From Bryobacterales bacterium (GTDB taxonomy: Bacteria; Acidobacteriota; Terriglobia; Bryobacterales; UBA6623), in assembly GCA_965242705.1 (NCBI GenBank), contig OZ251486.1, positions 3,151,806 to 3,215,805 on the forward strand: DNA of 64,000 nucleotides. Reading direction: 5' to 3'. A model generated the notes under the pieces. The model made no database searches. It worked only from the letters and a program-made list of their open reading frames with translations, and was not told the DNA's origin. Shown here piece by piece: positions 1-42,010 of the stretch. The position numbers were made by a program, and so were the translations under genes. How positions within the stretch are numbered: position 1 is the stretch's first letter; each line of letters opens with the position of its first letter.

Positions 1-799
1 CGGCGTCGGCAATGTAAACGTTCCCCGCGGCGTCCGCCGCCACGCCGGTGGGATTCGAGAGTTGCGCCGCCGTCGCCGCGATCCCGTCCATGTTGTAGCC
101 GGAAGTCCCTGTTCCGGCAATGGTGGTAATCACACCCGCCGTATCGACTTTGCGGATGCGCAGGTTGTCCCGATCGGCGATGTAGATGTTGCCTGCGGCG
201 TCCACTGCCACGCCGATGGGGATGTTCAGGCGAGCCGATGTCGCCGGCCCGCCGTCTCCCAGCGGGCCGCTAATGGCCGCCGATCCCGCGACCGTGGAGA
301 TGTTTCCCGTGGAGGCATCGATCTTGCGGATGCGGTGTTGGATGCTGTCGGCGATGTAAACGTTGCCCGCGGCGTCCGCCGCCACTCCGCCGGGGGTGTG
401 CAACCGGGCCGCTGTCGCCGGGCCTCCGTCCCCCAGGTTTCCGCTGGTCGATCCTGTTCCGGCGATTGTGGAAATGTTTCCCGAGGCGGCATCGATCTTG
501 CGGATGCGGTGGTTGCTCGCATCGGCGATGTAAACGTTGCCCGCGGCATCCACCGCCGCGTCGTTGGGCAGGTTGAGTTGGGCCGCCGCAGCCGGGCCGC
601 CGTCGCCGCTGAAACCGGCTGTCCCCGTTCCCGCGACCGTCGAGATGGCGGCGGCGTTTTGCGCCGCCAAGCGGGGAGTGAAAAGCGGCGAATGAAGAGC
701 GAGCGCAGCCAAGACGGCCGCCGCAGGCGAGTGAAGAACGCGAGACCCGCGCCCGCGCGAAAGTCCCGCCTTGGCGGCGGCAAGCCGGGCGCGGAGAGC
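1..799 (-). CDS. NHL-repeat beta-propeller secreted protein. The 3' part runs off the window and the 5' end is unresolved.
   Basis: The minus-strand frame reads ..RARLAAAKAGLSRGRGSRVLHSPAAAVLAALALHSPLFTPRLAAQNAAAISTVAGTGTAGFSGDGGPAAAAQLN..GNVYIADASNHRIRKIDAASGN.., i.e. a signal-like segment followed by NHL units. It is absent from the ORF track because there is no stop inside the window. The track ORFs 62..826(+) and 226..783(-) are off-frame shadows of it. There is no ATG/GTG/TTG in this frame between the TGA at 1006..1004 and the TTG at 712. Confidence 0.8.
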
Positions 800-860
800 A
801 GACGAAAAGGAAAGGAAAAGCCGTAGGTCAGAGAGCGCGGAGAGCGCGCTTCTCCTTATA

Positions 861-981
861 CGGGCTGACGGGCTGACGGGCTGACGGGCTGACGGGCTGA
901 CGGGCTGACGGGCTGACGGGCTGACGGGCTGACGGGCTGACGGGCTGACGGGCTGACGGGCTGACGGGCTGACGGGCTGAC
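861..981. repeat. Perfect tandem octanucleotide repeat (CGGGCTGA)x15, plus 1 nt
   Basis: Read directly: 15 uninterrupted 8-nt units from 861 to 980. The unit length is not a multiple of 3. All three minus-strand frames through it are open, giving the ARQPVSPS peptide repeat seen in track ORF 828..1103(-). Confidence 0.97.
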
Positions 982-26496: not shown

Positions 26497-26828
26497 TTAC
26501 AGGGTGACCGCGGTCTCGATGGTTTCGCCGTCATACTCGCCTTCGACGGAGATCGACACGCGGCCTTCGGGGGCGGCGGCGCGCGCGGTGACGCGGCGCA
26601 GCGCGAGGCGCGGCTCCCAGCGGTCGAGCGCCTCGGCCGTTGCGCTGTAGATAGCGGCGAGCGTTTCCGGATTCAACGGCGCATCGACCAGTTCATGCAG
26701 CCGCGAGCCGTAATCCCCGCGCATGACGCGGCTGCCCAGCGGCGTCGTCAGGATGTCGCGGATGGACTGTTCGAGATGCGCGCGCCCGCGCAGAGATCGG
26801 CCCGTTTCTCGGTCCAGGCCGGTCACTG
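26497..26828 (-). CDS. Phage baseplate protein, GPW/gp25 family
   Basis: ..TGLDRETGRSLRGRAHLEQSIRDILTTPLGSRVMRGDYGSRLHELVD.. matches the gp25/GPW pattern. I place the start at GTG 26828, overlapping the upstream stop (GTGA). The track start at 26898 looks too long. Confidence 0.75.
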
Positions 26829-27380
26829 CGTCAACTCCTCGTAGGCGGCCGGCTCGCCGGGCGGCGAGGCGTACAACTCCGACGGCAGCGGCGGGCAATC
26901 GGCCTCGGCGGCCGTTCCCAGGCGCAGGCGCTGCGTCCAGGTCAGCGACCAGAGCGCCGCGCCGCGCTCGTCGAGTTCCGTCGAATAGAGGTTGTCGGCG
27001 CGAAGCTGTTCCGCCGCGCCGATGCCGTCGGTATCCCAGCGCGCGCGGGGGATATAAACCAGCAGCGCGTCAGCCAAGTTGCGCGCGGCGGAGCCGCGGG
27101 GCAGCCCGGGCGCATTGGTCGTCACGATGTAGATCGCCAATTGCAGGTCGGCGTAAACCTGCGCGTCCGCGGCGGCGGTATGGACGCGCGGCGCGCCCAG
27201 ACAGGCAACGTAGATCGCGGGGGCGCGCACCGCGGCGCGGCGCAGTTCGGCGGCGTCGAAACGCCCGTCGCGCGGAGCGCAGACCGTCAGTTCGGGCAAC
27301 AGCCGGGACAAGGCTGAGCAGATGGCCGCGAGCAGTTCGTTCATTTCCGGCGGGGCGCCGAAACGGGCGGCGCTCATCAA
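26823..27380 (-). CDS. Mu gp37-like phage protein (DUF1834-like)
   Basis: 185 aa. The pattern ..AAICSALSRLLPELTV...IYVACLGA...LQLAIYIVT.. resembles the Mu gp37 family as I remember it. This is a moderate-confidence family call. Confidence 0.55.
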   Translation of the reverse strand: MMSAARFGAPPEMNELLAAICSALSRLLPELTVCAPRDGRFDAAELRRAAVRAPAIYVACLGAPRVHTAAADAQVYADLQLAIYIVTTNAPGLPRGSAARNLADALLVYIPRARWDTDGIGAAEQLRADNLYSTELDERGAALWSLTWTQRLRLGTAAEADCPPLPSELYASPPGEPAAYEELTQ

Positions 27381-27447
27381 CCGTTTTGGCAGCCGGCCGC
27401 CGCCGGCGCCAAGACCGAAGCGCTTCGGCAGGTCCGCCGGCGCCCGC

Positions 27448-28236
27448 TTACAGCGTCCGCGCCATCCAGCGCACCTCGCCGACCACCGCGGCGTCGGCGG
27501 GCCACGGCGCGGACGGCCAAGCGGGATGATCGCTGACCATCAGCAGACCGCCGTCGTCGGCACTACCCGCCCGCTTGACGACCAGGCCGTCGCCTGAGCG
27601 GATAGCATAGATGCGCCCGCCGCTCGGTTGACGCCGGCTGTGATCCACCAGGATCGAGCAGCCCTGGGGCAAAGTCGGCTCCATCGACTCGCCGGTTACT
27701 TCGATCACGCTGCACTGGGCCGGGTCGAGCGCATGGCGCGCCAGCCAGTCCCGTCGGAAGCCCACGTAGCCCGCTACCGCCTCGTCCATGTCCGCCGCGC
27801 CGCCGCCCGCGGCGGCGGCCAACCCGCGCACGGCGACAAGCCGCGTCCCCGGAAATTCGACAGCTTCTTCCACCGCCGCCGGCTGCGCCGCCACCCCGGC
27901 GTCCTCGAGCGCGTTTGCCGGCGGCTGCGCGGACGCCGGCAGGCGCGAGAGTATTTCGCGCAGCAAGGCGTCGGTGCGGTCGGTTTGCGCGGGCGCATCG
28001 ACGGGGGCGCCGCTTTGCGGCGGGCCGACGTCGATCTCCAGGCCGAGAGCGGCGGCCGCGGCTTCGAGCGTCGAGCTCAGCGCCGCGCGCCCGTCGAGCA
28101 GTCCGCGAACCCTGCCCATCGGAATGCCGGTCCGCGCGGCAAACGGCCGCAGCCCTTCCGTCTCCACGCGCCGGCGCACCTCTTCGCGCAGCCGTTCGAT
28201 GCCCCGCCGCGGCCGGCGATTGAACGTTTGTGTCAT
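27448..28236 (-). CDS. Phage repressor, N-terminal DNA-binding region plus C-terminal S24 (LexA/CI-like) peptidase domain
   Basis: ATG at 28236 (MTQTFNRRPRRGIERLRE..). The C-terminus reads VTGESMEPTLPQGCSILVD...IYAIRSGDGLVVKR (Ser/Lys dyad context). It is divergent from the transposase operon. Confidence 0.8.
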   Translation of the reverse strand: MTQTFNRRPRRGIERLREEVRRRVETEGLRPFAARTGIPMGRVRGLLDGRAALSSTLEAAAAALGLEIDVGPPQSGAPVDAPAQTDRTDALLREILSRLPASAQPPANALEDAGVAAQPAAVEEAVEFPGTRLVAVRGLAAAAGGGAADMDEAVAGYVGFRRDWLARHALDPAQCSVIEVTGESMEPTLPQGCSILVDHSRRQPSGGRIYAIRSGDGLVVKRAGSADDGGLLMVSDHPAWPSAPWPADAAVVGEVRWMARTL

Positions 28237-28389
28237 GGTTGACACGATTGTAGCACACTGCGGCAGGCCGGCCGCCGCCGGAATTTTTGCAGCCGAAACG
28301 CTGCATTGCTTCCACTGAAGAGCTTCGGCATTGGGCAAGGCTGCCCCTTGTTGGCAAGCTTGCTGTGTTGCGAACAGTCCGATTGTGTT

Positions 28390-28602
28390 ATGTTTAACAC
28401 AGAGCGATGCCTGACCACGCTTTGCAAAATCTTCATCCGGCGCAAGCAGCGCAGTCTTGCCGCGATTGCCCGCCTGAAAGCCGCCCGCGGCGAAATCCTC
28501 GCGCGTCTGGAGCATGGCGGCGGCGCGCGGCTTGCCGACCGCGCCGCGAGCCCGCCCGCCGCCGCCCCGCGCCCGGAGCCTCCCGCGGAGAAGAGCGCAT
28601 GA
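28390..28602 (+). CDS. Small early ORF, possible Ner/Cro-position regulator
   Basis: 70-aa ORF (MFNTERCLTTLCKIFIRRKQRSLAAIARLKAARGEILARL..). Its stop overlaps the MuA ATG (ATGA). The call rests on position only, with no recognisable HTH. Confidence 0.3.
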   Translation: MFNTERCLTTLCKIFIRRKQRSLAAIARLKAARGEILARLEHGGGARLADRAASPPAAAPRPEPPAEKSA

Positions 28603-30593
28603 CTGCCGCGCAGGCCGGAAAGACTGCCGCGCAGCCGGAGGCCAAGCCGGAGCGCGGCGCCTTTGGCGTCAGGGAAATCGCCACAGCGATGCGGATCAGC
28701 AGGCAGGCCGTGCAGCAGCGCGCCGCGCGTCGGGGTTGGCCCTGGTTCGAGAGCGGCGCGCGCGGCGCGAAGCGCCGTTTGTACCGTTTCGCCGACCTTC
28801 CCGCCGACGTTCGCCAAGCGCTTTCCCGCTCCGACTCGGGCGATTCGAACCCATCCGCGGCATGCGGCGCGCAGCCGGAGGCCGGCTCGGCTTACGACCG
28901 GGAATCCCTGTGGAACTCCTATGCCCGCCGCCCGGACAAGGCCAAAGCCGAGGCGCATCGCCGCTGCGCGCTGCTGTTGCGGGTAGAGGCTCTGACGGAG
29001 GCCGGGCAGCCGTTGATTCAGGCGCTGCGCTCCGTTGCCGAGGCGGATGGGAAAACGAGTTGGCAGACGCTGCGCCGCTGGCGCTATGCCGCGCGCCCCT
29101 ACGCCCGCGCCGACTGGCTGCCCGCGCTGCTGCCCAACTACCGCGGCCGCGGCAAGGCGCCGCTCGACCCGCGCGTCTGGGACTACGTCCGCGCCGACTA
29201 TCTGCGGCCCGAGCGGCCTACTCTGGCGGCCTGCTACGACCGTCTGCTCGAAGCCGCCCGCAAGCACGGTTGGGCCGTGCCTTCGCTGCGCACCGTTGCG
29301 CGGCGCATCCACGACCTTCCGGTTGAAGAGCGCGTGCTGCTGCGCGAAGGCGAGCATGCCCTGTTGCGGCTCTATCCGGCGCAGCAGCGCAGCGTGCGCG
29401 GTCTGCGCGCGGGCGAGTGGGTATGCGGCGACGGCTACCGCCACAATGTTTTCGTGCGCGGCGGCGGCCGCGTTTTCCGTCCCGTCACCTGGATTTGGGC
29501 GGATGTGTATTCCCGGCGCATCCTGGCTTGGCGGACGGGCGAAACCGAGCACGGCGATCTGGTGCGGCTGGCTTTCGGCGATCTGATCGGCCGTTACGGC
29601 ATTCCTTCGGCGGCGGTCATCGACAACACCCGCGCCGCGGCCAACAAGTGGCTTACCGGCGGCGCCCCGATGCGCCGGCGCTGGCGGCCGCGCGAGGACG
29701 ACCCGCTCGGCCTGCTGCCCGCGATGGGCGTCGCCGTCCACTGGACCAGCGTCGAGGCCGGGCGCGGCTGGGGGCAGGCCAAGCCCGTCGAGCGCGCTTT
29801 CGGCGTCGGCGGACTGGGCGAGACGGTGGACCGGCACCCCCTGCTGGCCGGAGCCTACGCCGGAGCGTCCGCCGCCGCCAAGCCGGCGAATTACGGCGAA
29901 CGCGCGGTTTCGCAGAAGGATTTTCGCCGCGCTTTGGACGACGGCATCCGCGTCTGGAACGCGCGCCCCGGCCGGCGCACCGAGATTTGCGCCGGACTGC
30001 TCAGTTTCGATCGGGCCTGGCGGGAATCGTACCGTCCGGACGATGTTCGCCGCCCGACTGCCGAGCAGATGCGCATGTGCATGCTGGCTGCCGAGGATGC
30101 GCGCGTCGGCCGGAGCGGAACGATTGCGCTCTCCGCGGGCGCGGCCGCTGCGGGAGGCGGGCGCAACCGCTACGGCGCCGACTTTCTTTTGCAATATGCC
30201 GGGCGCCGGGTCGTGGTGCGCTACGACCCGGCGCGGCTGCACGACGAGGTTCACGTTTATACGCTCGACGGCCGCTATTTGTGCGCCGCCGAATGCATAC
30301 GGGCCGCAGGCTTCGGCGACGCGGACGCCGGACGCGAGCACACCCGGACCCGCCGCCGCAAGGCGCGCGCCGTGAAGGAAATCGCCTCTGCCGAACAGCG
30401 CCTCGGCGCCTTGGAAGCGGCGGCGATGCTGCCCGCGGGCGCGCCGCCGGCAATGCCGCCCGGCGTGATCGAAATGGATTTCGCCCGTCGCCCGCCGCGG
30501 TCTGCCGCGGCGGCGGCAGGGGAGGAAGAACGGGACTGGTCGGCCGCCGCGGACGACCTGATCCTGGCGATGGCCCGCGGAGCGGGACTGTGA
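28599..30593 (+). CDS. Mu-like DDE transposase (MuA family)
   Basis: ATG at 28599. The N-terminal Mu-type DNA-binding region reads REIATAMRISRQAVQQRAARRGWPW..YRFADLP. The rve-like core reads EWVCGDGYRHNVFV..WIWADVYSRRILAWR..VIDNTRAAANKW. Confidence 0.85.
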   Translation: MTAAQAGKTAAQPEAKPERGAFGVREIATAMRISRQAVQQRAARRGWPWFESGARGAKRRLYRFADLPADVRQALSRSDSGDSNPSAACGAQPEAGSAYDRESLWNSYARRPDKAKAEAHRRCALLLRVEALTEAGQPLIQALRSVAEADGKTSWQTLRRWRYAARPYARADWLPALLPNYRGRGKAPLDPRVWDYVRADYLRPERPTLAACYDRLLEAARKHGWAVPSLRTVARRIHDLPVEERVLLREGEHALLRLYPAQQRSVRGLRAGEWVCGDGYRHNVFVRGGGRVFRPVTWIWADVYSRRILAWRTGETEHGDLVRLAFGDLIGRYGIPSAAVIDNTRAAANKWLTGGAPMRRRWRPREDDPLGLLPAMGVAVHWTSVEAGRGWGQAKPVERAFGVGGLGETVDRHPLLAGAYAGASAAAKPANYGERAVSQKDFRRALDDGIRVWNARPGRRTEICAGLLSFDRAWRESYRPDDVRRPTAEQMRMCMLAAEDARVGRSGTIALSAGAAAAGGGRNRYGADFLLQYAGRRVVVRYDPARLHDEVHVYTLDGRYLCAAECIRAAGFGDADAGREHTRTRRRKARAVKEIASAEQRLGALEAAAMLPAGAPPAMPPGVIEMDFARRPPRSAAAAAGEEERDWSAAADDLILAMARGAGL

Positions 30594-30643
30594 CAACCGC
30601 GGCGCCAAACCCCTCGCGTGCGAGGGAGAGATAGGAGTACGGG

Positions 30644-30919
30644 ATGACTGCTTTCAATGCGCAGCCGACCGATTTGCACGGCGATTTTTATAACCGGGGC
30701 GCGCGGCTTGCCGCCCGCGGGGCGCGGCGAGACCGGCCGCGGACCTGGCCCTGGCTGATCGCCGGTCTGATGGCCGGTTACGTCTGGGGACTCGGCTCGC
30801 GGGCGGACATCGTCCGCGAGGACGGCTACAAGGAAGGCGCCGCGGCGGCCTGGGCGGCCTGCGAGTCGCGGCAGACCGCCGCGGTCGGCGGAGGCGCGGG
30901 AATGGGGGCGCGGCGGTGA
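30644..30919 (+). CDS. Hypothetical small membrane protein
   Basis: 91 aa with one TM helix (WPWLIAGLMAGYVWGL). It lies between MuA and MuB and its stop overlaps the MuB start. Confidence 0.4.
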   Translation: MTAFNAQPTDLHGDFYNRGARLAARGARRDRPRTWPWLIAGLMAGYVWGLGSRADIVREDGYKEGAAAAWAACESRQTAAVGGGAGMGARR

Positions 30920-31887
30920 CGGCAACCGACAGCAGCGGCTTGCGCGAGTACGCCCGCGCGGCTCTGGCCGACGACGGCCTTTCCCAGGCCCGCGCCGCGC
31001 AGCAGATTGGCGTATCGGATACAACGCTCAATCAATGGCTGGCGGGCAAGTATCCCGGGCGGACTGCGGCCGTCGAGGCCAAGGTTTCGCGTTGGCTGGA
31101 CGTCCGCGCCGAGCGGTCGACGCTGCCCGCGGCGCTGCCCGAAGCGCCGGCGTGGGTGGAGACGCCGACGGCAAGGCGCATCGCCGCCGCGCTGAGTTGG
31201 GCGCAAATGGCCGCCGACCTGACCGTGGTTTACGGCGGCGCGGGTATGGGCAAAACAGTCTCCGCCCGTTCGTACGCGGCGGGGCGCCCCAACGTCTGGA
31301 TCGCGGTCATGACCCCCGCCGCGCAGTCGCCGGCAGCGTGTCTCGAACGGACGGCGGAGGCTTGCGGCGCGCGGCCGGCGCGGGGCGCGCGGCCTTCCCG
31401 CGCCGCGCAAATTGAGGCCGACCTGATCGAGCGGCTGGAAGGTTCGCGCGGGCTGCTGATCGTCGATGAAGCGCAGCATCTCGGCATCCGCGCCCTGGAA
31501 GGGCTGCGCGGCATTCACGACGCCGCCGGCGTCGGGCTGGCGCTGCTGGGCAACGAAACGGTATATGCGCGCATGACCGGCGGCGCGCGTTCGGCCGAAT
31601 GCGCGCAGCTTTTCAGCCGCATCGGACGCCGGACGCGGCTGGCCCGCGTTGCGGCGGGCGACGTGGAAGCCCTGCTGGCCGCCTGGGGCATCGCGGATTG
31701 CGCGGCCTTGCGCGCCGCGGCGCTGGATATCGCCCGGAGTCCCGGAGCGCTGCGCGGCCTGACCAAAACCTTGCGGTTGGCGGCTCTGCTCGCCGCCGGC
31801 GCGGGCGCCGGCGGCGGAGACCGGGCGGCCGGCGGGATCGAGCTGCGCCATTTGCGCGCCGCAGTCAAAGATTTGACGGGAGTGTGA
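30916..31887 (+). CDS. MuB-like AAA+ DNA transposition ATPase
   Basis: N-terminal HTH (LSQARAAQQIGVSDTTLNQWLAGKY), Walker A (VVYGGAGMGKTV), and Walker B (LLIVDEAQHL). Confidence 0.8.
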   Translation: MTATDSSGLREYARAALADDGLSQARAAQQIGVSDTTLNQWLAGKYPGRTAAVEAKVSRWLDVRAERSTLPAALPEAPAWVETPTARRIAAALSWAQMAADLTVVYGGAGMGKTVSARSYAAGRPNVWIAVMTPAAQSPAACLERTAEACGARPARGARPSRAAQIEADLIERLEGSRGLLIVDEAQHLGIRALEGLRGIHDAAGVGLALLGNETVYARMTGGARSAECAQLFSRIGRRTRLARVAAGDVEALLAAWGIADCAALRAAALDIARSPGALRGLTKTLRLAALLAAGAGAGGGDRAAGGIELRHLRAAVKDLTGV

Positions 31888-32420
31888 CCGTGACCCTGAT
31901 CGACATCGCCGGTCTTTGCCGCGCCTATGCCGCGGCCCGCGAACGTCTGAGCGAAACCGCCGAGCAGATTCGCGCCTTGCAGCGTCAGGCGCTGCGAGTG
32001 CGGCTGCGCGGCCTGCGCAACCGCGCCGCCGAGGTTTCCGCGGCCCGCGACGCCTTGCGCGCGGCCGTCGCCGCGCATCCCGAGTTGTTCGTCCGGCCGC
32101 GAACCCGCGCGCTCGAAGGCGTCAAGGTCGGCTACCGCAAAATGCCCGGCCGCATCGTTTGCGACGAAGCGCGCGCCGTCGCCCGCATCCGCAAGTTGCA
32201 CCCCGAACGCGAGGCCGATCTGGTGCGCGTGCGGGAAAGCCTCGACCGCGCCGCCCTGCGGCGTCTCGATTCCCAAACGCTGGCGTCGATCGGCGTTTCG
32301 ATCGCCGACGTTGAAGACGAAATCGTCATCGCCGCCGCCGGAGCGGATATCGACCGACTGGTGGACGCCATGCTCGACGAGGTGAAGGACGATGACGGGG
32401 GAAAGGAAACGCAGCCGTGA
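31884..32420 (+). CDS. Mu Gam-like host-nuclease inhibitor
   Basis: GTG at 31884 or 31890 inside track ORF 31599..32420. A coiled N-terminus (RERLSETAEQIRALQRQAL) is followed by ..FVRPRTRALEGVKVGYRKMPGRIV.., resembling the Mu Gam family. Confidence 0.65.
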   Translation: MTVTLIDIAGLCRAYAAARERLSETAEQIRALQRQALRVRLRGLRNRAAEVSAARDALRAAVAAHPELFVRPRTRALEGVKVGYRKMPGRIVCDEARAVARIRKLHPEREADLVRVRESLDRAALRRLDSQTLASIGVSIADVEDEIVIAAAGADIDRLVDAMLDEVKDDDGGKETQP

Positions 32421-32884
32421 CGGTCCTTGTTGATCCCTCCGTTGCGCAGGCCGCGCAGTCCCGCGCCCCCGCGGACGCCCGCCGCGGCCCGGAGCCCGGC
32501 CGCGCCGCCGCCGAGCGCCGGCGGCGCGAACTGGCGGCCATCCATATCGCCGTCAAGCGGCTCGGCCTCGACGATGAGAGCTACCGCAAGATGCTCAAAG
32601 GCGCCGCCGGAGTCCGCTCCGCGGCCGACCTCGACGCCGCGGGGCGCGCCGCGGTGCTCGACAGCCTGCGCGGCCGCCCGACGCCCGCGCCGGACAATCG
32701 CCGGATGATCGCCAAAATCCGCGCTCTGCTCGGCCGCCGCCCCGAAGCCTATGCCGAGGCGATCTTGCAGCGGCTCACGGGGCACGATCACCGCGTCCCG
32801 CTCGCCTGGGGCGCGCCTGAACAACTTCGCAAGGTCATCGCGGCGCTCCAATACGACGCAAACCGCAAAAGGAAACGGAAATGA
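32417..32884 (+). CDS. GemA/gp16-like phage regulatory protein (DUF1018-like)
   Basis: RRRELAAIHIAVKRLGLDDESYRKMLKGAAGVRSAADLD..GRAAVLDSL.. is the typical GemA pattern. It sits in the Mu-like position before mor. Confidence 0.72.
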   Translation: MTVLVDPSVAQAAQSRAPADARRGPEPGRAAAERRRRELAAIHIAVKRLGLDDESYRKMLKGAAGVRSAADLDAAGRAAVLDSLRGRPTPAPDNRRMIAKIRALLGRRPEAYAEAILQRLTGHDHRVPLAWGAPEQLRKVIAALQYDANRKRKRK

Positions 32885-33276
32885 CGGCAACGGCATTCGA
32901 TCTCTCGACTCTCAAATCTTCCCCGTCCGCGGTGAGGCGCTTGCCGCCGACGCTGCGCGAAATCCACGATTTGGTCGGCCGGCAGGCAACCCTGGCCCTG
33001 GTCGAACGCTACGGCGGCACGCACGTCCACGTGCCGCGCCGCTGCCGGGACGACCACGCGCTGACCTTGCTGTTGGGGCGCGAGCCCGCCGCGCGGTTCA
33101 TCCATCACTTCGCGGGCATTCGGCTCTATGTGGCCAAGATGGACGCCGTGCTGCGCGCCGCGCGCGACGCCGAAATCCGCAGGCTCTACGACTCGGGGCT
33201 GTCGGCTGCGCGGCTGGCGCAGAAATACGACCTCAGCGAACGGCGCATCTGGTCGATTCTGAAGGGGTGCGATTAG
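32881..33276 (+). CDS. Mor-family transcription activator
   Basis: ..IHDLVGRQATLALVERYGGTHVHVP... and a C-terminal HTH (YDSGLSAARLAQKYDLSERRIWSIL), typical of Mu Mor/C family proteins. Confidence 0.8.
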   Translation: MTATAFDLSTLKSSPSAVRRLPPTLREIHDLVGRQATLALVERYGGTHVHVPRRCRDDHALTLLLGREPAARFIHHFAGIRLYVAKMDAVLRAARDAEIRRLYDSGLSAARLAQKYDLSERRIWSILKGCD

Positions 33277-33319
33277 GGCCGCGCGGCAGCCGCAAGCGGC
33301 AAATCAGCGGGCCGGCGGG

Positions 33320-33408
33320 TTTCCTTCCGCGCGCGCATGGGAATCGCGCCGAGACCGCCTACGGCGTCATGCATTGGCAATTTCCTTCCGCGCGCGCATG
33401 GGAATCGC
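33320..33408. repeat. Perfect 28-bp direct repeat x2 separated by a 33-bp unique spacer (CRISPR-like mini-array candidate)
   Basis: TTTCCTTCCGCGCGCGCATGGGAATCGC occurs at 33320-33347 and 33381-33408 (61-bp period). It has an internal palindrome (TTCC..GCGCGCGC..GGAA). The reverse complement ends in GGAAGGAAA(C/T), like the GAAAC 3' end of many CRISPR repeats. No cas genes are present in the window. Confidence 0.9.
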
Positions 33409-33453
33409 TTTCCGGCTGATGCAACGCGGCTGCGCTATACTGATTGCGCCGCC

Positions 33454-33885
33454 ATGCCGCCTGCCGCCAATCCCGAATTGGCCGACCCCGTTGAGAACCA
33501 GGGCCGCGTATTGCCCAACAATGCCGGGCCGAACAACACCGGGGCAGCCGCCCGCGGCAGTTGGCTGAGCAATGAGATTTTGACCATGCTCAGCGTCGGC
33601 ATCGCCTTGGCCATGCTGCTGGTCATGCTCTTCAGCTTTACGAACAATCGCATCGACCGCTTGGAAATCAGGCTCGATACCAGAATCGACAGGCTCGACG
33701 ACAAGATCGACAAGCTCGACGCCAAGTTCGATGCCAAGTTCGACAAGCTCGACGCCAAGTTCGACGCCAAATTCGACGCCAAATTCGATGTGCTCGACGC
33801 CAAATTCGACGCCTTGCTGCTCGAATTGACTCGCCGCAACGCGATTTCCGCGGGAGGAGCGGAGCGGGCCGCCAAGCCCCAATAG
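33454..33885 (+). CDS. Membrane-anchored coiled-coil protein with (A/K)KFD / KLD tetrapeptide repeats
   Basis: ATG 33454 inside track ORF 33337..33885. It has a TM helix (MLSVGIALAMLLVMLF), then RIDRLEIRLDTRIDRLDDKIDKLDAKFDAKFDKLDAKFDAKFDAKFDVLDAKFD. The region is AT-richer than its surroundings. The start is uncertain. Confidence 0.5.
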   Translation: MPPAANPELADPVENQGRVLPNNAGPNNTGAAARGSWLSNEILTMLSVGIALAMLLVMLFSFTNNRIDRLEIRLDTRIDRLDDKIDKLDAKFDAKFDKLDAKFDAKFDAKFDVLDAKFDALLLELTRRNAISAGGAERAAKPQ

Positions 33886-33895
33886 GCGGCTGAAT

Positions 33896-33958
33896 GCCGC
33901 GCCTGACGGCGCGGCAGGGGTTAGAGGTTAGGGGTTGGGGGTTAGGGAAGAAGGGGGG
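33896..33958. repeat. Dispersed intergenic element, copy E3 (hairpin plus G-rich telomere-like tract)
   Basis: GCCGCGCC-TGAC-GGCGCGGC (33896-33915) followed by AGGGGTTAGAGGTTAGGGGTTGGGGGTTAGGGAAGAAGGGGGG. It lies between convergent genes. Confidence 0.88.
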
Positions 33959-34019: not shown

Positions 34020-34046
34020 GTAGTCGGCGGCTTTACCGCCGACTAC
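34020..34046. terminator. Strong perfect hairpin between convergent genes
   Basis: GTAGTCGGCGG-CTTTA-CCGCCGACTAC, an 11-bp perfect stem with a 5-nt loop, about 45 nt downstream of the minus-strand amidohydrolase stop. There is no long U-tract on either side. Confidence 0.45.
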
Positions 34047-34090
34047 AGTGGCGAGTGAAGAATGAAAAATCCATCCGCGCTATTCATTCT

Positions 34091-39895: not shown

Positions 39896-42010
39896 ATGCT
39901 CGAGCGTTCTGCGCGGCGGTCCGGCGTTTTCCGCGCCGCCGCGCGGCTTGCCGTCTGCGCCGTGTTGACGGCGGTGGCCGCGTGGGCGCAGCCCGCGGAT
40001 GAGTGGATCATCGAGACGGTTGCCGGGGGCTCGTTCGCGCGGGACGGCGGCCCCGCGGTTCGCGCTTGGCTCCGCTTTCCCAACGGAGCGGCAGTGGACG
40101 GTTCGGGCAATCTGTACATCGCCGATACGATCCACCACCGCATCCGCAAGGTCGATGCCGCAGGCGTCATTTCCACGGTCGCGGGAAGCGGGCGGGACGG
40201 CTACAGCGGAGACGGCGGCCCGGCGGTTCGCGCGCAACTCGCCGAGCCCTGGGGCGCAGCGGTGGACGGCAAAGGCAACCTGTACATCGCCGATACGGGC
40301 AACAACCGCATCCGCAAAGTCGATGCCGCGGGCGTAATCTCGACTGTGGCGGGAAGCGGAGAATGGGGCTACGGCGGAGACGGCGGCCCGGCGGTTCGCG
40401 CGCGGCTCGCCGGCCCCTTGAGCGCCGCGGCGGACGGCATGGGCAATCTGTACATCGCCGACAAGGGCAACAACCGCATCCGCAAGGTCGATGCCGCGGG
40501 CGCCATTTCGACGGTCGCGGGAACCGGGGAGCGGGGCTACGGCGGGGACGGCGGCCCGGCGGTTCGCGCGCAACTCGCCGAGCCTTGGGGCGCCGCGGTG
40601 GACGGCATGGGCAATCTGTACATCGCCGACAAGGGCAACAACCGCATCCGCAAGGTCGATGCCGCGGGCGTGATCTCGACGGTTGCGGGAAGCGGCGGGT
40701 GGGGTTACGGCGGAGACGGCGGCCCGGCGCTTCAGGCGCGGTTCCTCGCGCCCAGCGGCGTAGCGGCGGACGCCGCCGGCAATCTCTATATCGCCGATAC
40801 GGGCAACAACCGCATCCGCAAGGTCGATGCCGCGGGCGTTATTTCCACGGTCGCGGGAACCGGGAAGCAGGGCTACGGCGGAGACGGCGGCGCGGCGCTT
40901 CGAGCGCAACTCGCTTTCCCCCTGGGCGCAGCGGCGGACGGCGCGGGCAATCTCTACATCGTCGATGCGGGCAACAACCGCATTCGCAAGGTCGATGCCG
41001 CGGGCGCGATCTCCACGGTTGCGGGAACCGGGGACGTCGGCGACGGCGGCCCGGCGGTTCGCGCTTGGCTCGGCTTCCCCGGCAGCGTGACCGCGGACGG
41101 CGCGGGCAATCTCTATATCGCCGATACATTCAACGAACGCATCCGCAAGGTGGATGCCGCGGGCGTTATTTCCACGGTCGCGGGAAGCGGGGAGCGGGGT
41201 TACGTCGGGGACGGCGGCCCGGCGGCTCAGGCGCGGCTCGCCTCCCCTCTGAGTGCGGCGGCGGACGGGGCGGGCAACCTCTATTTCGTCGATGCAGGCA
41301 ACCACTGTGTCCGCAAGGTCGATGCCGCGGGCGCGGTCTCCACGGTCGCGGGAAGCGGACGATACGGCTACGGCGGGGACGGCGGCCCGGCGGTTCGCGC
41401 GCAACTCGCCTTGCCTCGAGGCGCGGCGCTGGACGATGCGGGCAACCTTTATATCGCCGATACCGAAAACCACCGCGTTCGCAAGGTGGACGCAGCGGGC
41501 GCCATTTCCACGGTCGCGGGAACCGGGAAGCAGGGCTACAGCGGCGACGGGGGCGCGGCGGTTCGCGCGCAACTCGCTTTCCCTTGGGGCGTGGCGGCGG
41601 ACGGGGCGGGCAACCTCTACATCGCCGACAGGAACAACCACCGTATCCGCAAGGTCGATGCCGCCGGCGCCATCTCCACGGTTGCGGGAAGCGGACAGTG
41701 GGGCTACGGCGGGGACGGGAGCGCGGCGGTTCGCGCGCAACTCGCTTTCCCTTACAACGTGGCGGCGGACGAGGCGGACAGCCTGTACATTGCCGATACC
41801 TGGAACGACCGCATCCGCAAAGTCGATGCCGCGGGCGTCATTTCCACAATTGCGGGAACGGGAGAAATGGGCTACAGCGGCGACGGAGGCGCGGCGGTTC
41901 GGGCGCGGCTGTCTTACCCCGCAGACGTGGCAGTGGACCGGGCCGGCAACCTCTACATCGCCGACAGCGGCAACAACAGCATCCGCCGCTTGCGCCGGTT
42001 GGGGAACTAG
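39896..42010 (+). CDS. Secreted NHL-repeat protein (12 highly similar NHL units)
   Basis: ATG at 39896 (MLERSARRSGVFRAAARLAVCAVLTAVAAWAQP), then 12 units of the form GNLYIADxGNNRIRKVDAAGVISTVAGSGxxGYGGDGGPAVRAQLAxPxGAAxDG. Confidence 0.9.
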   Translation: MLERSARRSGVFRAAARLAVCAVLTAVAAWAQPADEWIIETVAGGSFARDGGPAVRAWLRFPNGAAVDGSGNLYIADTIHHRIRKVDAAGVISTVAGSGRDGYSGDGGPAVRAQLAEPWGAAVDGKGNLYIADTGNNRIRKVDAAGVISTVAGSGEWGYGGDGGPAVRARLAGPLSAAADGMGNLYIADKGNNRIRKVDAAGAISTVAGTGERGYGGDGGPAVRAQLAEPWGAAVDGMGNLYIADKGNNRIRKVDAAGVISTVAGSGGWGYGGDGGPALQARFLAPSGVAADAAGNLYIADTGNNRIRKVDAAGVISTVAGTGKQGYGGDGGAALRAQLAFPLGAAADGAGNLYIVDAGNNRIRKVDAAGAISTVAGTGDVGDGGPAVRAWLGFPGSVTADGAGNLYIADTFNERIRKVDAAGVISTVAGSGERGYVGDGGPAAQARLASPLSAAADGAGNLYFVDAGNHCVRKVDAAGAVSTVAGSGRYGYGGDGGPAVRAQLALPRGAALDDAGNLYIADTENHRVRKVDAAGAISTVAGTGKQGYSGDGGAAVRAQLAFPWGVAADGAGNLYIADRNNHRIRKVDAAGAISTVAGSGQWGYGGDGSAAVRAQLAFPYNVAADEADSLYIADTWNDRIRKVDAAGVISTIAGTGEMGYSGDGGAAVRARLSYPADVAVDRAGNLYIADSGNNSIRRLRRLGN

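What the first reader, a model, noticed from the sequence alone, without database searches (positions are those of the whole stretch)
33320..33408. CRISPR-like mini-array (28-bp repeat, 33-bp spacer, 28-bp repeat) at the edge of the Mu-like element, with no cas genes nearby
Two identical 28-bp copies of TTTCCTTCCGCGCGCGCATGGGAATCGC are spaced 61 bp apart, 44 nt after the mor stop. The size, spacing and internal palindrome (TTCC-GCGCGCGC-..GGAA) fit a CRISPR repeat-spacer unit, as does the reverse-complement end ..GGAAGGAAAC (copy 1). Phage- and MGE-borne mini-arrays that use host Cas proteins against competitors are known from other systems. One inside a Mu-like acidobacterial element would be new to me. 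The 33-nt spacer is GCCGAGACCGCCTACGGCGTCATGCATTGGCAA.

There are alternative readings: tandem MuA end-binding sites (an R1/R2-like right end), or Mor- or C-dependent promoter repeats.
Basis: partly seen in the sequence, partly recalled or inferred. Interest (0 to 1): 0.7.

Follow-up and report, generated by a model that had tools for sequence, protein, structure and literature searches.

The report
Stray CRISPR spacer insertion scar
A 61-bp insertion beside the mor gene of a Mu-like remnant looks like a CRISPR spacer, cut from the bacterium's own sulfatase gene, pasted into a non-CRISPR site; natural cases of this accident are rarely documented.

Summary
Two identical 28-mers lie at 33320-33347 and 33381-33408, separated by a 33-nt spacer, and the 28-mer occurs nowhere else in the window.

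Eight related contigs carry one copy of the 28-mer at the same position, and the window nests among them. So the window has a recent 61-bp insertion made of a 28-bp target duplication plus 33 new bases.

The 33 bases match, 33 of 33 and in frame, a chromosomal arylsulfatase gene of the same Bryobacterales population. That gene's protein is 100% identical to the copy in the window's own genome. In the donor the fragment is preceded by AA and starts with G, which gives AAG.

A 28-bp duplication, a 33-bp insert and an AAG motif whose G is carried in are the signature of type I-E Cas1-Cas2 spacer integration. E. coli K-12's array, checked here, also has a 61-bp unit.

The best reading is an off-target ("neo-CRISPR") spacer acquisition into a repeat-like GC-rich palindrome that is probably part of a Mor-dependent promoter. 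It is not a phage weapon, because the spacer is host-derived. It is not a pair of MuA end sites either.

I could not test whether the host genome encodes a type I-E system.

The parts
33320..33347 (+). Copy 1 of the 28-bp duplicated target, on the mor side. This is the new copy created by gap repair, equivalent to the leader-proximal repeat.
   Evidence: Exact 28-mer. Absent from all eight relatives, which have a 61-bp gap here (alignment A1; indel list).
33348..33380 (+). 33-nt inserted spacer GCCGAGACCGCCTACGGCGTCATGCATTGGCAA, a verbatim fragment of a chromosomal arylsulfatase gene (codons AETAYGVMHWQ).
   Evidence: 33/33 match in L015, L016, L017 and L018, with donor flank ...gccgAA|GCCGAG.... 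32/33 in L012 and L013, 31/33 in the Bryobacterales MAG OZ243965.1 (L011), 30/33 in L014, with every mismatch at a third codon position. In frame at codon 391 of the gene.
33381..33408 (+). Copy 2 of the 28-bp target. It keeps the original downstream context and corresponds to the single ancestral site.
   Evidence: Aligns with the single copy of L001-L006 (identical) and of L009/L010 (4 substitutions). The downstream flank is conserved.
33400..33413 (+). Dyad GGGAA-TCGC-TTTCC spanning the 3' end of copy 2 and its flank. Candidate Mor-binding element, centred about -40.5 from the inferred transcription start.
   Evidence: Only match to GGRAA-N4-TTYCC in the window. It is a better palindrome in L009/L010 (GGAAATCGCTTTCC). 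Mu's Mor binds a 5-N6-5 dyad centred at -43.5 (PMC4390567). Binding here is inferred, not shown.
33435..33440 (+). Conserved -10-like hexamer TATACT with no recognisable -35, upstream of the small ORF.
   Evidence: The block TGCGCTATACTGATTG is invariant in all nine sequences while neighbouring bases vary. No complete sigma-70 consensus was found in the region.
33454..33885 (+). Small conserved ORF (143 aa) with an N-terminal transmembrane segment and a repetitive coiled-coil-like tail. This is the gene whose upstream region received the insertion.
   Evidence: The start codon and ORF are conserved in L001, L002 and L009. Weak PHROG hits of unknown function. GC3-rich frame.
32881..33276 (+). 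mor, encoding a Mor-family late or middle transcription activator.
   Evidence: Pfam PF08765, E=1.2e-10; PHROG 836, E=5e-31.
26510..33890 (+). Mu-like early-region module: gp25-like ORF, 185-aa ORF, S24 repressor, MuA, MuB, GemA, Mor and the small ORF. It has no head or tail genes. This is the mobile-element context of the site.
   Evidence: Pfam and PHROG hits. Homology limits against L009 and L007.

Best explanation
The structure is the product of one recent off-target CRISPR spacer acquisition, a 'neo-CRISPR' event. A type I-E-like Cas1-Cas2 integrase captured a 33-nt prespacer from the cell's own chromosome. The source was an arylsulfatase gene, at a site next to an AAG PAM, and the G was retained as the first base of the spacer. 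The integrase did not insert it at the leader end of a real array. It joined the two 3' ends to opposite strands, 28 bp apart, at a GC-rich, partly palindromic, repeat-like site downstream of mor in a Mu-like prophage remnant. Gap repair then duplicated the 28-bp target, giving 28 + 33 + 28. The G end of the spacer abuts copy 1, so the mor side acts as the leader side. The ancestral single 28-mer most likely belongs to the Mor-dependent promoter of the small downstream ORF. Copy 2 keeps its native spacing to the conserved -10, so the promoter is probably still functional. The mini-array is probably an inert scar and not a working crRNA gene, because a working one would target the host chromosome. 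Shown here: the direction of the insertion, the exact donor, the AAG flank, and the 28- and 33-bp lengths. Inferred: the enzyme, the presence of a type I-E system in the host, the Mor promoter role, and inertness.
For: (1) Direction of the indel. Eight relatives have one copy of the 28-mer and lack exactly 61 bp. The window differs from L006 by 1 of 1010 aligned positions and nests inside the single-copy clade, with L009/L010 as outgroup. The two copies are identical, whereas the L009 copy differs at 4 of 28 positions.
(2) Donor. The spacer is 33/33 identical to the sulfatase gene in L015-L018. L017 comes from the same assembly as the single-copy relative L001. Its protein, P0138, is 100% identical to P0135, which sits on the 4,969,973-bp contig that also carries the window's Mor protein. 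More distant orthologues differ from the spacer only at third codon positions.
(3) PAM. The donor reads gccgAA|GCCGAG. AAG occupies only about 1.2% of trinucleotide positions in the donor gene and in the window. The population variant with GAG at that position (L012, L013) also has a spacer mismatch.
(4) Geometry. 28 + 33 = 61 bp, the unit length measured here in the E. coli K-12 type I-E array.
(5) The target shares 10 of 14 bases, in register, with the core of the E. coli I-E repeat. Only 0.4% of window 28-mers do as well.
(6) The event is one of a kind. The other indels of 6 bp or more against L001 over 17 kb are tandem-repeat copy-number changes.
(7) Precedent. Off-target Cas1-Cas2 integration that spawns new arrays was reported by Nivala et al. 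2018, as summarised.
Against: No cas gene or genuine CRISPR array was seen. None is in the 64-kb window or in any fetched locus, and the rest of the host genome could not be searched. One cultured member of the family Bryobacteraceae was reported to have no CRISPRs (PMC8759368). The donor DNA of the window's own genome could not be retrieved, so the 33/33 match comes from population contigs whose protein is identical. The junction is ambiguous by one base (28+33 or 27+34), because the donor and the repeat both continue with T. Overall in-register similarity to the E. coli repeat is unremarkable (12/28; 6% of window 28-mers reach it), and the reverse orientation scores higher (15/28). The host's own repeat is unknown.
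Confidence: 0.8

Rival explanations
1. A functional mini-CRISPR array carried by the element. Under this reading the Mu-like element keeps a repeat-spacer-repeat unit that host Cas proteins process into a crRNA for inter-element competition or for regulating a host gene.
For: The unit lies on a mobile-element remnant with no cas genes nearby. Viral mini-arrays and solitary repeat units are documented. The spacer has a perfect protospacer with an AAG flank, so it could in principle guide a type I-E complex.
Against: The spacer matches a host chromosomal sulfatase gene, not a mobile element. Known mini-arrays mostly target related viruses. All eight relatives lack the array, so it is not a conserved feature of the element. 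The 28-mer folds no better than shuffles (z = +0.7 and +0.9). The repeat is absent from the genome and viral collections. A functional array with a perfect PAM would cause self-targeting.
Confidence: 0.06
2. Insertion by a mechanism that does not involve Cas proteins. For example, filler DNA captured during double-strand-break repair, or polymerase template switching, that happened to copy 33 bp of the sulfatase gene and duplicate 28 bp.
For: No cas genes have been demonstrated in this genome. Short templated insertions do occur in bacteria (general knowledge).
Against: No known repair or transposition route produces a 28-bp target duplication; MuA gives 5 bp (established knowledge). There is no useful microhomology between the donor flanks and the target beyond one T. 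Such a route does not predict the 33-bp length or the AAG flank, which has a prior of about 1.2% per position.
Confidence: 0.07
3. The two-copy state is ancestral, a real pair of regulatory or transposase-binding repeats (Mor or C sites, or MuA R1/R2-like sites). Under this reading the relatives lost one copy by recombination between the repeats.
For: Recombination between 28-bp direct repeats would delete exactly 61 bp. The site lies downstream of mor and has dyad symmetry. Mu's Mor binds a dyad upstream of a promoter lacking a -35.
Against: The intervening 33 bp are an exact in-frame copy of a coding gene located elsewhere, so they must have been inserted. The window nests within the single-copy clade, so several independent deletions would be needed. 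No inverted or degenerate copy exists at the other end of the element or anywhere else in the window. L009/L010 have a single, diverged copy.
Confidence: 0.03
4. An assembly or sequencing artefact (chimeric read or mis-join) created the 61-bp insertion.
For: Only this one assembly shows the allele. All six contigs retrieved that encode the identical Mor protein are single-copy.
Against: An artefact would not be expected to produce a precise 28-bp duplication flanking exactly 33 bp that starts at the G of an AAG in the donor.
Confidence: 0.03

Closest known systems
Non-canonical (off-target) spacer integration by type I-E Cas1-Cas2, generating 'neo-CRISPR' loci (Nivala, Shipman and Church 2018, Nat Microbiol 3:310)
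   Same: A spacer-length fragment is inserted at a non-CRISPR chromosomal site, with duplication of a repeat-length stretch of the target. This yields repeat-spacer-repeat with no leader or cas genes nearby. The unit length is 61 bp, as in the E. coli array. The spacer is host-derived and carries the AAG signature.
   Different: The published events were obtained in E. coli with overexpressed Cas1-Cas2, and natural evidence was described as circumstantial, in two other species. This case is natural and comes from an acidobacterial (Bryobacterales) population. The empty-site alleles, the exact donor gene and the PAM are all recovered. The target lies inside a Mu-like element. I could not read the paper itself, so the comparison rests on citing papers and my recollection of its abstract.
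Virus- or MGE-borne mini-CRISPR arrays (Faure et al. 2019; Medvedeva et al. 2019, PMC6858448)
   Same: One spacer between two repeats, on a mobile-element-derived region, with no cas genes.
   Different: Those arrays carry repeats identical to the host's arrays, and their spacers mostly target related viruses. In this window the spacer is a host housekeeping-type gene fragment. The relatives of the element lack the array. Identity of the repeat with a host array is untested.
Solitary repeat units / RNA anti-CRISPRs (Racr; Camara-Wilpert et al. 2023, PMC10651486)
   Same: The ancestral state is a single repeat-length, partly palindromic unit on a prophage-like element with no cas genes. An integrase evidently accepted it as a repeat.
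   Different: SRUs were defined by similarity to known CRISPR repeats and usually sit just downstream of a promoter. This 28-mer lies upstream of the conserved -10 and has no notable hairpin. Its similarity to the host repeat could not be tested.
Phage Mu middle promoter Pm with its Mor-binding dyad
   Same: The site lies immediately downstream of mor, and a conserved -10 without a -35 precedes the next gene. A GC-rich dyad lies upstream of where the -35 would be.
   Different: Mu's site is a 16-bp 5-N6-5 element centred at -43.5. The candidates here are 5-N4-5 centred near -40.5 or 5-N14-5 centred near -54.5. No binding or transcript data exist. This comparison concerns the ancestral site, not the duplication.

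Membership tests
Canonical CRISPR array | At least two direct repeats of about 23-47 bp separated by a unique spacer of similar length | tested here: met
   28 + 33 + 28 bp, with exact repeats. This is the minimal case of one spacer.
Canonical CRISPR array | The repeat belongs to a repeat family that also forms arrays elsewhere (same genome or relatives) | tested here: inconclusive
   No other copy in the window. The 24-nt core is absent from genome contigs and viral contigs. No Rfam CRISPR-DR hit, but the E. coli I-E repeat itself scores only 14.5 bits in the same test. The host genome outside the window could not be searched.
Canonical CRISPR array | Associated cas genes or a leader | tested here: not met
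   About 40 ORFs across the 64-kb window are housekeeping or Mu-like. The upstream 'leader' is the GC-rich 3' flank of mor.
Off-target Cas1-Cas2 integration (neo-CRISPR), type I-E geometry | The insertion is derived relative to an empty, single-copy target site | tested here: met
   Eight single-copy relatives. The window nests within them, 1 difference in 1010 positions from L006.
Off-target Cas1-Cas2 integration (neo-CRISPR), type I-E geometry | Target duplication of repeat length (28 bp) and insert of spacer length (33 bp, counting the PAM-derived G) | tested here: met
   28-bp duplication and 33-bp insert, ambiguous by one base (27+34). The E. coli K-12 I-E unit is 61 bp.
Off-target Cas1-Cas2 integration (neo-CRISPR), type I-E geometry | The insert is a copy of a protospacer flanked by the cognate PAM (AAG, with the G retained at the leader-proximal end) | tested here: met
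   33/33 donor match with flank AA|G in L015-L018. AAG frequency is about 1.2%. That AAG is the type I-E PAM is established knowledge and was not tested here for this host.
Off-target Cas1-Cas2 integration (neo-CRISPR), type I-E geometry | The host encodes, or recently encoded, a matching Cas1-Cas2 | not testable with these tools
   Only 64 kb of the 4.97-Mb genome is available.
Off-target Cas1-Cas2 integration (neo-CRISPR), type I-E geometry | The target resembles the native leader-repeat region | tested here: inconclusive
   Against the E. coli repeat: 12/28 overall (not unusual) but 10/14 in the palindromic core (0.4% of window 28-mers), and 15/28 in the reverse orientation. The host's own repeat is unknown.
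MGE-borne mini-array used against competitors | The spacer targets a related virus, plasmid or other mobile element | tested here: not met
   The spacer matches a sulfatase gene in a conserved chromosomal truB-sulfatase-tauE locus. There is no hit in viral contigs or metagenome contigs.
MGE-borne mini-array used against competitors | The array is a conserved feature of the element lineage | tested here: not met
   Absent from all eight relatives of the element.
MuA end-binding sites (attL/attR L1-L3, R1-R3) | Related copies in inverted orientation at the opposite end of the element | tested here: not met
   No match on either strand with up to 9 of 28 mismatches, and no sub-motif match elsewhere in the element.
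MuA end-binding sites (attL/attR L1-L3, R1-R3) | Multiple copies conserved in related elements | tested here: not met
   Relatives carry a single copy. L007 and L008 lack the region entirely.
Mor-dependent (Pm-like) promoter (applies to the ancestral single site) | A -10 hexamer without a -35, downstream of mor and upstream of the next transcription unit | tested here: met
   TATACT at 33435-33440 is invariant in nine sequences. No full sigma-70 match was found. See Pm.
Mor-dependent (Pm-like) promoter (applies to the ancestral single site) | A dyad-symmetric activator site centred near -43.5 and bound by Mor | tested here: inconclusive
   Candidate dyads are centred near -40.5 (GGGAA-N4-TTTCC) and near -54.5 (TTTCC-N14-GGGAA). 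The transcription start is inferred from the -10. Binding cannot be tested here.

The most novel reading that the evidence does not exclude
The conserved single 28-mer may not be an accidental look-alike. It could be a CRISPR-repeat mimic (a solitary repeat unit or Racr-like element) carried by this family of Mu-like early-region modules. If so, the window captures the moment when host Cas1-Cas2 used such a unit as an integration site and turned it into a mini-array. That would be a natural snapshot of how MGE-borne mini-arrays, or new CRISPR loci, are born. It would come with the empty site, the donor gene and the PAM all in hand.
Probability: 0.15. Interest if true: 0.85.

Novelty: new member of a known kind. 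Interest (0 to 1): 0.66.

Why it matters
Off-target spacer integration has been shown in the laboratory with overexpressed Cas1-Cas2. It has been proposed as a route by which new CRISPR loci arise, but the natural evidence was described as circumstantial. This locus gives a clean natural example in an uncultured soil lineage. It includes the pre-insertion allele in sister genomes, the exact donor gene in the same population, the PAM, and the exact repeat and spacer lengths. It is also a testable case. It predicts a type I-E adaptation module in this Bryobacterales genome and says which features of a non-CRISPR site suffice for integration. It also shows that CRISPR adaptation can mutate promoter regions of resident mobile elements. 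Finally, it is a caution for annotation, because a two-repeat 'mini-array' on a prophage can be a scar and not a weapon.

Tried and rejected
- Rfam scans of the window and of the repeat region found no CRISPR-DR family. I do not count this as evidence, because the E. coli I-E repeat itself scores far below threshold in the same test.
- Folding the 28-mer in either orientation gave -5.3 and -5.4 kcal/mol, no better than shuffles. There is no CRISPR-type hairpin.
- Exact searches for the repeat core found nothing in genome contigs or viral contigs.
- The spacer search found nothing in metagenome contigs or viral contigs. The only hit, in genome contigs, opened the sulfatase lead.
- A search for inverted or degenerate copies of the 28-mer and its sub-motifs in the window, to test the MuA-site reading, found none.
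- Retrieving the donor DNA from the window's own genome failed, because P0135 is not on record. I used contigs that encode an identical protein instead.
- The Nivala 2018 paper is not held, by DOI or by PMC id.
- Literature on CRISPR types in Bryobacterales or Acidobacteria gave nothing specific.
- Mor relatives in viral contigs, sought to see the native site in complete Mu-like phages, were not found.
- The consensus promoter and terminator scan of the region returned nothing.

Full report
**Observation.** TTTCCTTCCGCGCGCGCATGGGAATCGC occurs at 33320-33347 and again at 33381-33408 on the + strand. The 33-nt stretch GCCGAGACCGCCTACGGCGTCATGCATTGGCAA lies between the copies. No shuffle of the window produced a match. 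No other copy exists on either strand, even with 9 mismatches. It is the only exact direct repeat of 18 bp or more at CRISPR-like spacing in the window or in any of the loci fetched, apart from the E. coli control array.

**Context.** The window is high-GC chromosomal DNA. Upstream of the repeats lies a Mu-like early module:
- an S24-type repressor (27448-28237, minus strand);
- MuA (28407-30593);
- MuB (30916-31887);
- GemA (32417-32884);
- Mor (32881-33276).

Further left are a gp25-like ORF and a 185-aa ORF on the minus strand, and before those the host genes grpE and dnaJ. Downstream of the repeats is a small conserved ORF (ATG at 33454, ending at 33885) with a transmembrane segment and a repetitive tail. 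After it comes a host amidohydrolase on the minus strand. There are no head or tail genes, so this is an early-region-only remnant of about 7.4 kb. None of the roughly 40 ORFs tested across the window is a cas gene, and the window holds no array.

**Comparative result that changes the question.** The Mor protein has five close relatives (82-100% identity) and one at 68% in public assemblies. I fetched their contigs and aligned the region downstream of mor.
- All eight informative contigs carry one copy of the 28-mer at the homologous position and lack exactly 61 bp. These are L001-L006 (99.2-99.9% identical to the window across the 1.1-kb region compared) and L009/L010 (about 84% identical at DNA level there).
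- Over 1010 shared columns the window differs from L006 at one position. It nests inside the single-copy clade, with L009/L010 as outgroup.
- The two copies in the window are identical, while the L009 copy differs at 4 of 28 positions.

The two-copy state is therefore derived and recent. It is a 61-bp insertion made of a 28-bp duplication of the target plus 33 bp of new sequence. The only other indels of 6 bp or more against L001 over 17 kb are tandem-repeat copy-number changes.

**Origin of the 33 bp.**
- A 22-nt piece of the spacer hit one place in the genome collection. It lies inside a 479-aa sulfatase ORF of a Bryobacterales MAG (OZ243965.1, L011) and matches 31 of 33 bases.
- Homologues of that sulfatase include two clusters that contain the exact peptide the spacer encodes, AETAYGVMHWQ.
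- Their DNA matches the spacer at 32/33 (L012, L013) and 30/33 (L014). Every mismatch falls on a third codon position.
- Cluster members include P0135, on a 4,969,973-bp contig. Its DNA was not retrievable.
- P0138 is 100% identical to P0135 at protein level. Its contigs L017 and L018, and also L015 and L016, carry the spacer 33/33, in frame at codon 391.
- L017 is from the same assembly as the single-copy relative L001.
- The locus (truB-sulfatase-tauE-MauG-TonB receptor) is conserved in the MAG as well, so it is ordinary chromosomal DNA and not a mobile element.

**The signature.** In the exact-match donors the flank reads ...gcgccgAA|GCCGAGACC...GGCAA|tggcag. The fragment is preceded by AA and begins with G. 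This gives AAG, with the G carried into a 33-nt insert. That G abuts the 3' end of copy 1. From established knowledge of type I-E adaptation, the repeat is 28 bp plus a PAM-derived G, the spacer is 32 nt plus that G, and the PAM is AAG. I confirmed the 61-bp unit and the repeat GAGTTCCCCGCGCCAGCGGGGATAAACC(G) in the E. coli K-12 array. AAG occupies only about 1.2% of positions in the donor gene and in the window. The population variant with GAG at that position (L012, L013) is also the one with a spacer mismatch. Three independent features (28, 33, AAG with the G retained) therefore agree with a single known enzyme activity, Cas1-Cas2 integration. No other mechanism I know of creates a 28-bp target duplication. 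MuA gives 5 bp.

**Why this site.** The 28-mer is an imperfect 24-bp palindrome, TTTCCTTCCGCG|CGCGCATGGGAA, with 9 of 12 positions paired (from the sequence). Aligned in register with the E. coli I-E repeat it shares 12 of 28 bases overall, which is not unusual (6% of window 28-mers). In the central palindromic core it shares 10 of 14, which only 0.4% of window 28-mers reach. The reverse orientation gives 15 of 28. This is suggestive only, because the host's own repeat is unknown. Citing papers describe off-target sites as sharing features with CRISPR repeats. They describe such integrations as able to spawn new arrays in E. coli, with only circumstantial natural evidence.

**Native role of the single site (inference).** In all nine sequences the block TGCGCTATACTGATTG and the ATG 13 nt downstream are invariant while neighbouring bases vary. 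There is no -35. Mu's middle promoter likewise has a -10, no -35, and a Mor-bound dyad with a GC-rich centre at -43.5. Here GGGAA-TCGC-TTTCC (33400-13) is centred near -40.5. It is unique in the window and is a better palindrome in L009/L010. The 5-N14-5 dyad within the 28-mer is centred near -54.5. I therefore think the ancestral site is part of a Mor-dependent promoter for the small ORF. Copy 2 keeps its native downstream context, so the promoter is probably intact.

**What it is not.**
- It is not a pair of MuA end sites. There are no inverted copies, and the site is single-copy in relatives.
- It is not a conserved element-borne mini-array aimed at competitors. The spacer is host-derived, the array is absent from relatives, and the repeat has no notable hairpin.
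- Rfam gave no CRISPR-DR hit, but the E. coli repeat fails the same test, so that result is uninformative.

A working crRNA from this unit would target the host's own sulfatase gene at a perfect PAM. This argues that the unit is an inert scar.

**Main gap.** I could not examine the rest of the 4.97-Mb genome, so the presence of a type I-E system is a prediction and not a finding. One cultured Bryobacteraceae strain was reported to have no CRISPRs. I put 0.8 on off-target Cas1-Cas2 integration. The remainder is shared among a Cas-independent insertion, a functional mini-array, an ancestral pair with repeated loss, and an assembly artefact.

**Verdict.** The most likely explanation is a natural neo-CRISPR event, a new member of a known but rarely documented kind. 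Interest is moderately high, because the empty site, the donor and the PAM are all recovered and the key prediction can be tested directly.

Noticed in passing
window 26510-33890; L001, L007, L008, L009: The Mu-like element is an early-region-only module (gp25-like ORF, 185-aa ORF, S24 repressor, MuA, MuB, GemA, Mor, small ORF) with no head or tail genes. The same module, with intact ORFs, sits in different host contexts. L007 and L008 end right after mor, next to a GFO_IDH gene. L001 has a different left flank. It could be a mobile or domesticated mini-Mu and not just a decayed prophage.
   Followed up: partly
L009 175-269 and 7554-7647: In L009 the module is bracketed by inverted repeats of about 95 bp (52 nt of them perfect). 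Its right flank is the 3' end of dnaJ in inverted orientation, so the element lies next to dnaJ in the opposite orientation to the window. This is either an invertible segment or an assembly artefact.
   Followed up: partly
window 33669-33813: The small ORF downstream of the repeats contains nested 12-, 21-, 33- and 45-bp tandem repeats encoding (K/A)FDxLD-type heptad-like units. Their copy number varies between relatives: 143 aa in the window, 128 in L001, 139 in L002 and 120 in L009.
   Followed up: partly
window 33916-33947: G-rich heptamer AGGGGTT repeated 4.6 times just past the end of the module, with a one-unit (7-bp) difference from L001. Function unknown.
   Followed up: no
window 28229-28246 and 28384-28401: Two operator-like palindromes, TGTGTCAtggtTGACACG and TGTGTTAtgttTAACACA, lie between the divergent repressor gene and the early (MuA) operon. 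They are likely repressor or Ner-type operators.
   Followed up: no
window 34020-34051: Perfect 11-bp stem hairpin GTAGTCGGCGG-ctttac-CCGCCGACTAC between the small ORF and the convergent amidohydrolase gene, with no T-run. The region gave only a weak, sub-threshold HgcC hit.
   Followed up: no
window 860-981: Perfect octamer tandem repeat ACGGGCTG x15.2.
   Followed up: no
window 143-604, 11767-13029, 40039-41986: Long coding tandem arrays with 168-174-bp periods that encode NHL/teneurin-type beta-propeller repeats in large secreted-type proteins.
   Followed up: no
L012/L013 versus L015-L018 (sulfatase gene, position just 5' of the protospacer): The population is polymorphic at the PAM position itself (GAG versus AAG) and at one synonymous site inside the protospacer. 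The spacer matches the AAG haplotype.
   Followed up: yes
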